Source: Eledone cirrhosa (Eukaryota). From it: 64,000 nt of DNA. Both the position numbers and the translations under genes were made by a program. Below the pieces are notes generated by a model that was given only the letters and a program-made list of their open reading frames with translations, was not told the origin of the DNA and did no database searches. Shown one piece after another: positions 664-60,295 of this stretch. Numbering within the stretch: position 1 is the first letter of the stretch; the number at the start of each line of letters is the position of its first letter. The stretch covers positions 338,644,001 through 338,708,000 of the forward strand of contig OZ024741.1 of the NCBI GenBank assembly GCA_964016885.1, read 5' to 3'.

Positions 664-711
664 ACAATCTTGATGAGGCAATAACCCAGAAACAATATTA
701 TTGTCGATTGT
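664..711 (+). ncRNA. Type-I hammerhead ribozyme-like motif (variant core)
   Basis: Stem I ACAATC/GATTGT; core TTGATGA (C3U variant); short stem II GG..CC; GAAAC; stem III ACAAT/ATTGT; GTC cleavage triplet at 703-705. Confidence 0.6.
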
Positions 712-1084
712 TTCTCTCTGTCACCGCTAGATCAAAAGGTTGGCAATGGCCATCTATAAAACATAGCATAATGAGGCTGTTTGCTTGCAAACAAATCAAA
801 TGTTATTATTATTTGATATAAAACTCATGACTGCATATATATATGTGTGTGTATGTACTAGAAGCCATGTTCTATCTTGCTGGGTTTGTTAATATCTAAA
901 ATAGATATAATCCTATGGATTTACTATATTTTGGTTAAACTGTTTTAAAAAGATGCTGACAATTTTCTGTTGGTCTGGGAATGTTGATTCACAATACCCC
1001 AAAAATGGTTGAAATAAATCAAGCTTCATTAAAATGTGCAAAAAGAAAATCAAAACAATAACAAATATAGAACTCCCTCCAAAA

Positions 1085-1295
1085 AAAAATAATGTAGACC
1101 CCCCCCCCCCCCCCAAAAAAAAAAACAAATATGGACCCCTCTAAAAACAAATACATACCCCCATCAAACATAGAAACCCCCACCAAATAAACAAACACAG
1201 ACCCCTTCCAAAAAAGCAAAACAAATATAGATCCCCTCTCTCCAAAAACACAAACATAGATCCCATCAAAAAACAAATATAGATCCCATCCACAC
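1085..1295. repeat. About 31-bp minisatellite (AAAACAAATATAGATCCCCTC-like)
   Basis: About six degenerate tandem copies are visible. Confidence 0.7.
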
Positions 1296-2329
1296 ACCCA
1301 CTCACACCAAAAAAAAAAGCATGAAGAAACCCAAATAAAATTTTGGTCTGACGTTTTCTTTATTTATTTCTTTGCAATGTTTTCAAGTCATCTTCCCTGC
1401 TACAGCAGGAGTTAACCTTGCAGGTTTCATGACAAGTGTCTTTACTTTTCCCTATCATCTGCACCCCACTCATAAAAACATATATTGTATATAGAGTTAT
1501 ATTTTGGGAATTATAGCCCCTCACCCACCCAAGATAAAGAGGGCTCATCAGTTGGGTTTATGACCAACAACCAGCCTTCCAAGTGCTGGTGTCATAGTAA
1601 AATGCATCCAGTACACTTTGTAAAGTAGTTGGTAATAGGAAGGACATCCAGCTGTAGAATCCATACCAAAACCAGAACTTAAGTGCTGACTTGGTCGATA
1701 ATGGCCTGTCCATTCCATATTAACATGGAAAAGGACATGAAATGATGGTGATTCCATGGTTTCTGAATGCCCTTCATATTACCAACCTCTTTACAGAGTG
1801 TACTGGGTGCATTTTTTTGTGTCACCAACACTACAAAGAGTCATATGAGCAACAAGAATAAGTGATTCTCTCAAGCCACATTCATTCAACAACTGCTTTG
1901 TACAGTGTACTTTGTGGAACCAGGACTGGTCAGGTTGCCTTTGTAGATAGGAAACATAAATCTCTTACTTTGCCAGCCCTGCCCTAAACATCAAATCCAC
2001 AAACCCTATCCACCCAATCTCTGGCCAGAAAATTTTAGGTTCTGTATGAGATCATTGAAATATGCTGGCTAGTTATCCTAGCCAACTAAAACCTTGTCTG
2101 TTCACTTAACATTACTCCTTCTGACACTTCCGACACATCACCAATAATCCTGCAACCATGTACCCAATTCTATGTTGTCTCAATTTGAAGCAAACTGAGC
2201 AAGGGAATAAGTGGTTTTCTGCCAAGGACTTATGAAATAACGTGCCAATTCAAGGTGGTGGCTTGGTGAAATTGTTAGATTGACAAATTCTTCTTCCTGT
2301 ATGATATATGCACAATGGTTAGAGAGAGA

Positions 2330-2640
2330 TCGAGATTGGTGAGCCAGACTAAAGCGTCATTTGTGGTGTTTTGGATTACTTCCAATGTCTGAGGGGACAA
2401 TCATGGACAACATGCAACACCATCAAGTCAGGGTACCTATAGTCACAGGCTGGGCTGTTTTTCATTTTCCATCAATGAAGATGATGGACTGTCTTGGCAT
2501 ATGTTGTGTGGATCCGATTAAGGGACACTCATTGCTTTCTAGGAAGGTCAAAGCCAGCTGATTTAAATGTGGGATCATGGACTAAGTCTGAGTTGGCAAA
2601 TTTGAACTCATTCCACGATCAGGGTGGACCACAAAGGTTG
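2330..2640 (-). mobile_element. Degenerate 3' fragment of an Ingi/Vingi-like non-LTR retrotransposon
   Basis: Manual minus-strand translation ...AGFDLPRKQ*VSLNRIHT...SPACDY...HVVHDCP resembles the GFDLPR..W..LNR.RTG...C.C...H....CP C-terminus. Clade assignment is from memory. Confidence 0.5.
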
Positions 2641-2762
2641 GCATCTCGTGTCTCAGAATGACAGATGAGATGTCTGGTGGTATTTGTTCTTGCTCTTTGT
2701 GTTATGCATTCAAATCATGTTTTGTCCTTACTCGAGTGGTAGGCTTAAACCATCAGTCATCT

Positions 2763-2965
2763 ATGAGTGTTGGCTGAAAAGTTTATAGGCTGACCAAGAT
2801 ACTCTCATGGAATGACGAAATGAGGTTTATTTTTCAACATAATCCCTGGAAAGAAATAATGTAGTTATTAATATGAAGAATTGAAATTAATACATGCAAT
2901 AATTCACAGCTCTAGCATCACTCCTTCATCGTCAGCCTATGAACTTTTCAGTTGACCCTTGTAGT
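2763..2965. mobile_element. Mariner-type MITE (family M1)
   Basis: Terminal inverted repeats CTGAAAAGTT(C/T)ATAGGCTGAC / GTCAGCCTATGAACTTTTCAG; same family as 5600, 5901 and 13152. Confidence 0.7.
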
Positions 2966-3224
2966 TTAACACCACCACCTAATTCTTGGGTGCTTTAATC
3001 AGTGTCCACACTTTTACAAGCATTTAGGCTAGGTCTCTAGTTTGGGTTACCTTTCTCCTTTCCACCAATCTCTGAGATCCCAAAAAGGGTCATCAGCCTT
3101 GCACTTCCCTTCTTCAGTAAACAGTAAATCAAATGTAAACACAAAACAGTTCTAATTTAGCTGTTATTCTTAGGGTCTTCCTAATACAGAGAGAAACATT
3201 GTAAAGTCTTACATGATATTTATA

Positions 3225-3675
3225 ATGGTTTCTGATTTAGGCACAAGAGCCACTATTTTAGGGTAGGAGAAAGTCAATTAAATTTACTCCAGTGCATTAC
3301 TGGTACTTTATTTTATCGATCCTGTAAGGTTGAAAGGCAAAGCTAACCTCGGCGAGATTTGAACACAATGTAAAAGGACAACTATATGCTACAAAGCATG
3401 TTGTCCAACGCTCTAATGTCTCTGTCAATCCACCACCTTTAATAATAATTCTTTCTAATATTGGCACAAGGTCAACAATTTTAGGGAATGAGAAAGTCGA
3501 TTATATCAACTCCAGTATTTTACTGGTATTTGATTTTATCACCCCCACCCTACCCCTAAAGGATGAAAGACAAAGTTGATCTCAATAGGATTTAAATTGA
3601 GAATGTAGAAAATCATAACTGAATACCACAAAGCATTTTGTCCAACGCTCTACAGTGACTGCCAATCAACTGAAC
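3225..3675 (-). mobile_element. Two tandem copies of tRNA-derived SINE family A
   Basis: Each copy has a B-box-like GTTCAAATC, a central GCCTTTCATCCTT..GGGGTCGATAAAATAAAGTACCAGT block and a CCTTGTGCC..AGAAA tail. Confidence 0.75.
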
Positions 3676-58876: not shown

Positions 58877-59278
58877 AACTGAAAGATAGATATAAATATA
58901 TTGACATCCGAGTAAAACATCTCTTTGTTTGCCTCATTGTTTTGTCAAATACAATTCCGAGAATCAACCCCCATCCCACCCCCCTCTCACTGTATAATGT
59001 CCCATCAGGCAATGTTATCAAACATCTCCACTTACATACAGCGTAGTAGTGTATGTATCATCAGACAGTTACAAAACTTCAGCCACCCATGTTGTTCATC
59101 AGGCACCATTATAAACCCTTCTACCACTACATTTACTGTACTTTCAAACACCATTATATCAATAAATAAAAAAAAGTACTAAAAGAAAATGTCTCCTGTT
59201 TGTATTATGAAATGCCACCATTTTTATTGTTAAACATTATCATCAAACATCATCATCATTATCGTCATTCATCATCAT

Positions 59279-59462
59279 TGGATTGCAGTATCAGTAGAGG
59301 GTCGGACGCCATGCTTTGAAGCATAGAGTTACCTCCTTTTATGATCTGAGTTCAAATCCCACCGCAGTTAACTTTGCCTTTCATCCTTACAGGTTGATAA
59401 AATAAAGTACCAGTAATACACTGGATAATTGCTGGCCTTGTGCCAAAAGTAGAAACAATTAT
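59279..59462 (+). mobile_element. SINE family A
   Basis: Same body and AGAAACAATTAT end as the other copies. Confidence 0.8.
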
Positions 59463-59620
59463 CAAATATCACCATCGTTATTGTCAAACATCATTATCTC
59501 CAAATATTGTTATAATCACAGACAAGGTTGTGTGGTACCCTGGCCAAGTATCTTCTACAGTAGCCTAGGGTCAATCAGTGTCTTTTGAGGGAAATTTGGT
59601 AGATAGAAGCCTTTATATAT

Positions 59621-59753
59621 ATAGTGAAATTCTGTTATAACGAAATTGTTGTAACAAATTCTTTATAACAAGATCGACTGAAACAAATCGAGCGTTTGGG
59701 GAATGAAAAATATTTCGTTATAATGGTATTCATTATAATGGAATTTTACCTGT
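59621..59753. mobile_element. pogo/Tigger-like MITE
   Basis: TA-flanked imperfect TIRs AGTGAAATTCTGTTATAACGAA / TTCATTATAATGGAATTTTACCTG. Confidence 0.55.
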
Positions 59754-59908
59754 ATATATTTATATTAAAGGTGAGTGCTAAGCTGTCAAAGTATACCAAA
59801 TATATGTATTTCTCTGTCTATAATAAAAATGTGTACATTTATATACACATTTACAGTCTTAGTTATCTGTATTCTGTGTACATACAGATATAACTTTATC
59901 ATATATAT

Positions 59909-60030
59909 ATATGAAAAGATTCAGGACCCCGATGGCTTAGCTCCGGCCATTACAGCAGCTAGATCCAAACTCAGATCTAGCTGTCGAAATGGCCGGAGCT
60001 CAGTCATCGGGGTCCTGAATCTTTTCATAT
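59909..60030. repeat. Near-perfect GC-rich hairpin, 57-bp arms, 8-nt loop
   Basis: 59909-59965 is the near reverse complement of 59974-60030. Confidence 0.9.
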
Positions 60031-60254
60031 TACCCACCCTACTACCCCAAGTATCGAGTACTCTGGTGCGTTATGGTCCACCTGGTATCTTACCCCACCC
60101 TCTCTGTTATATATATATATATATATATATATATATATATCTCAACAGTTTTTCCTGGAGATGATGACATGAATAGACCTGTTTTTTCTCTAAAAACATT
60201 TTTTTGTTTCCACCACTGCCTGTCTCCTCAATCATTCTATTTCTTTTTTTATTT

Positions 60255-60295
60255 ATATTTTCTAATGAAGGACTAGTGTCCGAAACGTTAAAACT
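60255..60295 (+). ncRNA. Decayed minimal hammerhead motif (Penelope-type)
   Basis: CTAATGA-A-GGAC tagt GTCC-GAAAC GTT A. Core G5 is changed to A and stem I is weak. Confidence 0.45.

What the first reader, a model, noticed from the sequence alone, without database searches (positions are those of the whole stretch)
664..60295. Five dispersed type-I hammerhead ribozyme motifs across a zinc-finger gene cluster
Seen: CUGANGA-stemII-GAAA-short stemIII-UH motifs closed by stem I at 664-711(+), 22326-22408(-), 41465-41505(-), 48859-48934(+) and 60255-60295(+). Their stems differ in sequence while the catalytic core is kept. Two have near-palindromic stem III (ACCTTAGGT, ACCTTTGGT), most lie near (TA)n tracts, and none has an adjacent RT/GIY-YIG ORF that I can recognise. 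Known: minimal type-I hammerheads with palindromic stem III are typical of Penelope-like element termini and non-autonomous retrozymes, and can cleave as dimers. Inference: several distinct self-cleaving-RNA mobile element families populate this genome, and some may affect host ZNF transcripts.
Basis: partly seen in the sequence, partly recalled or inferred. Interest (0 to 1): 0.8.

Follow-up and report, generated by a model that had tools for sequence, protein, structure and literature searches.

The report
Decayed Penelope retrotransposon hammerhead ends
The five self-cutting-RNA motifs are worn-out copies of five repeat families: two are shown and a third is likely to be the tail end of Penelope-type jumping genes, and most of these five copies likely no longer cut, so this is an ordinary case of a known kind.

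Summary
All five motifs lie at the stated places. Each belongs to its own dispersed repeat family of this 3.0-Gb, probably octopod, genome. Longer copies tie the 22.3-kb family to a Hydra-clade Penelope-like element (PLE) ORF and the 60.3-kb family to another GIY-YIG ORF. The 48.9-kb family is tied only by flank homology to an intact Hydra-clade element. The 0.7-kb and 41.5-kb families have no ORF link. Nested 5' truncation, inverted upstream copies and microsatellite targets fit PLE insertions. The core is not kept in every window copy: 664 has U3.G8 (its family is U3-A8), 41.5 kb breaks pair 15.2-16.2, 60.3 kb has G5A, and 22.3 kb is predicted to be locked by its own inverted arm. Only 48.9 kb could plausibly cleave. 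No within-family covariation was found, and no effect on ZNF transcripts was shown. PLE hammerheads, U3-A8, U.U at the stem II base and an octopus Hydra-clade hammerhead are all published. The modest extras are long stem II arms, a sixth family with a U4C core (7.5 kb) and a young element with two hammerheads. Verdict: new members of a known kind; interest low.

The parts
664..711 (+). F1 hammerhead-like motif, window copy. It has U3.G8 and has lost 2 nt at the base of stem II. The family core is UUGACAA (U3-A8) with A.A at the base of stem II and a 4-5 bp stem III.
539..848 (+). F1 repeat body (about 290-350 nt family, no ORF link found)
465..551 (-). Inverted partial copy of the F1 3' end lying just upstream (PLE-type inverted arrangement)
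22326..22408 (-). F2 hammerhead motif: intact core, GUA site, U.U at the base of a 50-nt stem II region; 3' end of a Hydra-clade PLE
22431..22471 (+). Inverted copy of the F2 3' half. In a sense transcript it is predicted to pair with GAAA, stem III and stem I and block the fold (+37.7 kcal/mol).
41465..41506 (-). F3 hammerhead motif of an old family (70-77% identity between copies). The family form has G10.1-C11.1 and palindromic ACAUGU; the window copy breaks 15.2-16.2.
48858..48935 (+). F4 hammerhead motif: intact core, GUA site, 10-bp stem I, 3-bp stem III, 38-nt stem II region with a mismatched base; flanks homologous to a Hydra-clade pLTR
60258..60293 (+). F5 minimal hammerhead (extra A after A9, 4-bp stem II, ACGU palindrome). 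The window copy has G5A. 3' end of a GIY-YIG PLE.
7510..7591 (+). One longer copy has a Hydra-clade endonuclease about 2.3 kb upstream. The window copy has a 13-nt deletion in stem II.
48545..48592 (-).
30953..30996 (-).
8339..10249 (+). C2H2 zinc-finger open frame 1 (context)
35331..36629 (-). C2H2 zinc-finger open frame 2 (context)
53799..55355 (+). C2H2 zinc-finger exon 3 (context). A contig of run X21 starts to fit at 53799, right after a pyrimidine tract and AG, with 407 letters before it that do not continue the DNA.

Best explanation
The five motifs are decayed single copies of five repeat families; two families are shown, and the others are likely, to be 3' ends (pseudo-LTRs) of Penelope-like retrotransposons, whose type-I hammerhead would cut the element's RNA in the source copy. 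The element's GIY-YIG endonuclease and reverse transcriptase would copy the RNA from near its 3' end into AT-rich or microsatellite targets. Copying usually stops early, which leaves 120-350-nt stubs that carry the ribozyme but no ORF, often with an inverted second stub in front. After insertion the stubs mutate neutrally. Shown: family membership, ORF linkage for F2 and F5 (and F7), nested 5' ends, inverted stubs, core damage. Inferred: PLE origin of F4 (by homology), F1 and F3 (by anatomy), cleavage by the source elements, and inactivity of four window copies.
For: F2: nested 5' ends from -345 to -1232 with a fixed 3' end. Same-strand RT-thumb/GIY-YIG frames lie upstream in 5 of 30 loci and inverted ones in 2. 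In reverse, 9 of the 30 best endonuclease loci, the query's own included, have F2 about 300 nt downstream on the same strand. The F2 endonuclease is 47% identical to an intact 715-aa ORF that has RWK, DKT and CxCX5C, the Hydra-clade motifs of PMC8557442 section 11. F5: a GIY-YIG frame lies upstream on the same strand in 2 of 30 loci and inverted in 1. F4: 63% identity over 232 nt to the pLTR of that intact element (E 2e-9 with relaxed scoring). Inverted upstream stubs occur in 15 of 54 (F1), 8 of 29 (F2), 5 of 58 (F3), 9 of 29 (F4) and 0 of 30 (F5) loci. Published Hydra-clade hammerheads have the same 3-4 bp stem III and U.U stem II base. In F3 the free core position 7 is split G10/U9/A5/C2 while other core positions keep one letter in 19-28 of 28 copies, which points to several source elements that kept the core.
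Against: No ORF link for F1: the endonuclease upstream of one copy belongs to another family, and 0 of 29 of its relatives are followed by F1. No link for F3. No contiguous same-strand ORF for F4 in its short loci or in 8 loci extended to 7.4 kb. No double-sided covariation in 23 F4 copies, and pairing is not above the shuffles. No Pfam hit for the intact ORF or the F2 endonuclease piece, so the clade call rests on motifs and on likeness by eye to Hydra-1_Obim. Loci were the best matches to the window copies, so the samples are biased. Cleavage was not tested.
Confidence: 0.85

Rival explanations
1. F3, and perhaps F1, are non-autonomous non-LTR retrozymes: tandem 250-450-nt units cut by the ribozyme into monomers that circularise and reinsert.
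For: F3 has canonical type-I proportions and a palindromic stem III. A second same-strand motif region lies 277-415 nt away in 4 of 58 loci. No ORF link was found. Unit sizes match PMC7229834 (passages).
Against: 52 of 58 F3 loci show no second same-strand piece, no array longer than two or three units was seen, and inverted stubs are as common (5 of 58). Partial tandems are also a PLE trait. A 2026 preprint argues that retrozymes derive from PLE pLTRs (abstract), so the two readings overlap.
Confidence: 0.12
2. One or more copies (F4 above all) were co-opted to cut ZNF pre-mRNA and regulate the cluster.
For: The F4 copy has an intact core, and its hammerhead fold costs only 2.5 kcal/mol, like the young element's 2.2. 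It probably lies sense in the intron before the exon at 53799 (the upstream exon was not located). Six of seven assignable ends are sense to the nearest ZNF frame.
Against: The F4 copy is about 90% like its family, as any neutral copy is. Its stem II base has two mismatches. Four other copies are disabled. The strand excess is small (6 of 7, binomial p about 0.06, my calculation). A related PLE hammerhead needed the element's protein to cut in vitro (PMC11167929 passages).
Confidence: 0.04
3. The palindromic F1 and F2 insertions are MITE-type DNA transposons and the motif is incidental.
For: The window copies at 664 and 22.3 kb have inverted arms.
Against: The arms differ in length and position from copy to copy and are absent in most copies. 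F2 continues into an RT/GIY-YIG frame.
Confidence: 0.02
4. The motifs are chance matches in AT-rich DNA.
For: Loose descriptors give as many hits in shuffles (3 vs 2.25). Rfam finds none.
Against: The families' commonest letters form better ribozymes than three of the window copies. Both pattern searches gave 34 and 81 matches against 0 for the reversed control. The motifs sit at PLE ends.
Confidence: 0.01

Closest known systems
Hydra-clade PLEs and their hammerheads, including Hydra-1_Obim of Octopus bimaculoides (PMC8557442; passages, section 11, supplement part 2 and supplement searches seen)
   Same: C-terminal GIY-YIG, RWK, DKT and CxCX5C motifs, (TA)n targets, inverted 5'-truncated copies, 3-4 bp stem III with a 1-3 nt loop, U.U at the base of stem II.
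   Different: F2, F4 and F7 have 38-62 nt between the two core halves, longer than the Hydra rows of File S2 (at most about 25 nt). Their motif strings were not found in the supplement (line breaks could hide a match). The young family here has a 1.7-2.3 kb 3' region with two hammerheads.
Minimal hammerheads of metazoan PLEs (PMC4209133; parts 1-2 of 4 read)
   Same: Extra nucleotide after A9, palindromic minimal stem III (F5), mostly single dispersed motifs from truncated PLEs, close pairs on opposite strands, a U3-A8 core family (Schistosoma Cercyon).
   Different: That paper reports a highly conserved G10.1-C11.1 pair; F1, F2 and F4 lack it. F1 combines U3-A8 with a long stem III.
Non-LTR retrozymes (PMC7229834, passages; bioRxiv 10.64898/2026.07.22.740005, part 1 of 5)
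   Same: Type-I hammerhead in a short AT-rich repeat without an ORF; F3 has a few short tandems.
   Different: No long tandem arrays here; F2, F5 and F7 run into PLE ORFs; circles were not tested.
Poseidon PLE of Anolis, PAc (PMC11167929, passages)
   Same: Hammerhead in the pLTR; insertions end past the cleavage site.
   Different: A different PLE clade, and tested in vitro: cutting needed the protein and was dispensable for insertion.

Membership tests
Type-I hammerhead ribozyme | Core CUGANGA, GAAA, UH with C3-G8 or a compensatory pair | tested here: met
   Met by the commonest family forms and by window copies F2 and F4; not met by window copies F1 (U3.G8) and F5 (G5A). Copies with core, pair 15.2-16.2 and at least 3 bp of stem I: 15 of 30, 10 of 29, 2 of 29, 22 of 29, 15 of 30 for F1-F5.
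Type-I hammerhead ribozyme | Three stems around the core, stem I open | tested here: inconclusive
   Stems can form, but the base of stem II is unpaired or mismatched in F1, F2 and F4, and stem III is broken in the F3 copy.
Type-I hammerhead ribozyme | Covariation in stems | tested here: not met
   F4: 0 double-sided changes in 23 copies, 85% of cells paired, not above shuffles. The apparent CA/UG swaps in F3 stem I look like independent CpG decay (read by eye). Other families were not counted.
Type-I hammerhead ribozyme | Self-cleavage | not testable with these tools
   Needs in vitro transcription.
Penelope-like element | Motif lies 3' of an RT/GIY-YIG ORF on the same strand | tested here: met
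   Met for F2, F5 and F7 (one locus). Not found for F1, F3 and F4.
Penelope-like element | 5' truncation with inverted or tandem partial copies | tested here: met
Hydra clade of PLEs | RWK, DKT, CxCX5C, C-terminal endonuclease, (TA)n targets | tested here: met
   All three motifs are present in 10 of 13 long frames of the young sister family; the 3 others are shorter frames. F2 is tied to it by 47% identity. No tree was built.
Neptune clade of PLEs (F5) | Clade-specific linker and phylogeny | not tested
   The label is recalled from the look of the GIY-YIG pieces; no call names it.
Non-LTR retrozyme | Tandem units each with a complete hammerhead | tested here: not met
   The window copies are single. 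In F3 a second motif region occurs in 4 of 58 loci; it is rarer in the other families.
Non-LTR retrozyme | Circular RNA monomers | not testable with these tools
   Only assembled contigs were available.

The most novel reading that the evidence does not exclude
Octopod Hydra-clade PLEs carry working hammerhead variants outside current descriptors: stem II arms of 38-62 nt, a non-G-C stem base, and family-wide U3-A8 and U4C cores. A very young family has one cleavable (GUA) and one non-cleavable (GUG) ribozyme per element. These would be a natural test set for what the ribozyme does in Penelope transposition, and the intact sense copy at 48.9 kb might cut a zinc-finger pre-mRNA.
Probability: 0.2. 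Interest if true: 0.55.

Novelty: new member of a known kind. Interest (0 to 1): 0.27.

Why it matters
Little, as a finding: ribozyme-bearing Penelope stubs are known to be scattered through many animal genomes. Eight in 64 kb shows that they are dense here and are missed by Rfam. What remains useful is a set of natural variants (long stem II, U3-A8, U4C) and young, apparently active PLE families with intact ORFs, in which the unresolved role of the PLE hammerhead could be tested.

Tried and rejected
Rfam scan: no hammerhead family. Strict descriptor: no hits. Protein search with the F2 endonuclease piece: none at E<=0.001 among longer proteins (weak). Pfam: nothing for the Hydra-clade ORF. 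Naiad origin (their 'half cores' have long spacers): rejected for F2 and F7, whose linked endonuclease is C-terminal and Hydra-type. An F1 link through the endonuclease in L010: rejected. The GIY-YIG frame in L132 belongs to another family, not F5. An F4 ORF link by extending 8 loci: not found. Covariation in F4: none. MITE reading: rejected. Earlier findings of the scan: none returned. Eight further relaxed-descriptor hits gave no motif-bearing repeat match among the loci held or fell in other repeats and were dropped (956, 2774, 27865, 28250, 32388, 36576, 37525, 40041), as was 49753. Literature: 7 searches found no paper on these particular families; subscription papers are not searched, and Lunse et al. 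2017 on dimer cleavage is recalled, not read. Supplements of the bioRxiv preprint were not seen.
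Full report
Setting. The window is G000:C2:338644001-338708000 of a 3.0-Gb genome. It is about 35% GC and rich in microsatellites, with three C2H2 zinc-finger frames and an RT frame of a LINE. No call names the organism.

Observation. All five motifs are at the stated places. Rfam finds none. A strict descriptor finds none and a loose one is at chance level. 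A descriptor that allows an unpaired base of stem II, tuned after the fact, is clearly above 40 local shuffles. The stronger test is that every site belongs to a dispersed family: F1 (664), F2 (22.3 kb), F3 (41.5 kb), F4 (48.9 kb) and F5 (60.3 kb), with 1686, 1792, 30, 1667 and 3208 first-look candidates, of which 30-40 were scored and 30 fetched each. These are the best matches to the window copies, so all counts below come from biased samples.

State of the copies. F1's family core is UUGACAA: 19 of 30 aligned copies and 29 of 34 exact pattern matches, with 4 UUGACGA, 1 CUGACAA and 0 CUGACGA (the pattern fixed C at position 7). This is the U3-A8 swap of the C3-G8 pair, reported as active (PMC3088659 passages) and known from a schistosome PLE (PMC4209133). 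The window copy reads UUGAUGA and has lost two bases, so its likeness to CUGANGA is partly decay. F5's window copy has G5A (an inactivating change, recalled), while 21 of 30 copies keep CUGAUGA. F3's copy breaks pair 15.2-16.2 (family ACAUGU), and its hammerhead fold costs 13 kcal/mol. F2's copy is intact on its own (4.1 kcal/mol), but its 41-nt inverted arm is predicted to pair with the 3' half of the ribozyme (37.7 kcal/mol). Only F4 keeps the core and a cheap fold (2.5 kcal/mol), although its stem II base reads G.U, C.C, G-C, U.U where another subfamily has five good pairs. The folding numbers ignore tertiary contacts and dimers.

What the families are. F2 copies share a fixed 3' end and nested 5' ends up to 1.2 kb. 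The longest carry broken RT-thumb and GIY-YIG frames on the same strand (5 of 30) or inverted (2 of 30). Searching with that endonuclease gave 49,084 candidates; 9 of the 30 best loci have F2 about 300 nt downstream. Many others belong to a young sister family with intact 713-719-aa ORFs bearing RWK, DKT and CxCX5C, the marks of the Hydra clade (PMC8557442 section 11). That ORF has 1310 relatives at E<=1e-20 among 8000 scored, nearly all unnamed. F4's flanks are homologous to this family's pseudo-LTR (63% over 232 nt). No F4 copy was found contiguous with an ORF; the sister family's 3' region is 1.7-2.3 kb long and full of microsatellites, which would explain this. F5 has a different GIY-YIG frame upstream in 2 of 30 loci and inverted in 1. 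F1 and F3 have no ORF link. F1 shows the PLE-type inverted stub in 15 of 54 loci. F3 shows inverted stubs in 5 of 58 and a second motif region in 4 of 58 (ten duplicate loci were dropped before counting). Microsatellite neighbours are enriched for F2, F4 and F5 but not for F1 and F3.

Selection on the motif. Within F4, 23 copies show no double-sided change, as expected of stubs that decay after insertion. In F3 the CA/UG alternation at stem I is best read as CpG decay. The one sign of constraint in the source elements is position 7, the free core position: it is split three ways in F3 while the other core positions are not, and it is G or C in F7. Across families the stems differ in sequence yet pair.

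Mechanism. Shown: repeat families, PLE linkage for F2, F5 and F7, truncation and inversion, decay. Inferred from the literature: source elements are transcribed through tandem pseudo-LTRs and the ribozyme cuts the precursor, perhaps as a dimer (PMC4209133) or with help from the element's protein (PMC11167929). Copying from the 3' end that stops early leaves ORF-less stubs. The stubs extend 45-200 nt beyond the cut site, in line with that paper's finding that uncut RNA is the main template.

Host genes. No site lies in a ZNF frame. A contig of run X21 joins the third ZNF exon at an AG acceptor, so F4 probably lies in an intron on the sense strand; the upstream exon was not located. Contigs cannot show cleavage. 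Six of seven assignable ends are sense to the nearest ZNF frame, which is not significant.

Against what is known. File S2 of PMC8557442 already lists Hydra-clade hammerheads with U.U at the stem II base and 3-4 bp stem III, among them one from Octopus bimaculoides. An axolotl retrozyme with such a U.U mismatch cleaves weakly (PMC7229834 passages). The finding is therefore a set of new members of a known kind. What differs is the length of stem II in F2, F4 and F7, the U4C core of F7 (U4C is mentioned for a viroid variant in PMC3088659) and the two-ribozyme layout of the young family. None of these was tested for activity. Interest 0.27.

Noticed in passing
window 7510-7591 (+); loci L343-L362, L371-L375: A sixth family (2921 first-look candidates) with core CCGAGGA in 11 and CCGACGA in 7 of 20 copies (U4C), about 62 nt of stem II, palindromic stem III and a GUA site. 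One longer copy has a Hydra-clade endonuclease 2.3 kb upstream.
   Followed up: partly
L181-L192: Very young Hydra-clade PLE with intact 713-719-aa ORFs. It has a terminal hammerhead (GUA site, 21 identical matches) and an inner, diverged one 300-460 nt after the stop with a GUG site in 8 of 8 matches, which would not cleave by the NUH rule (recalled).
   Followed up: partly
L193-L222; window 48545-48592 (-) and 30953-30996 (-): A second very young PLE family (150 scored endonuclease copies at 94-97% identity, open frames up to 995 aa) with its own hammerhead-like motif. Two decayed older relatives lie in the window.
   Followed up: partly
window 43640-44050 (+): CpG-richer stretch ending in a GTGAGT donor-like site. 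It is a candidate first exon for the ZNF exon at 53799; the two ZNF genes diverge from this region.
   Followed up: no
window 15529-17493 (-): 654-aa open frame of a LINE with RT and PHD-like hits; many fragments of the same element occur in the window.
   Followed up: no
window 57600-58900: 1.3-kb (TA/TG) microsatellite array that causes the spurious Rfam miRNA hits.
   Followed up: no
window 60384-60850: Probable mariner-type transposon remnant directly after the F5 stub (label recalled from the terminal sequence).
   Followed up: no
L167, L022, L123, L329, L338: Further hammerhead-like motifs of other families near PLE pieces, suggesting many more families in this genome.
   Followed up: no
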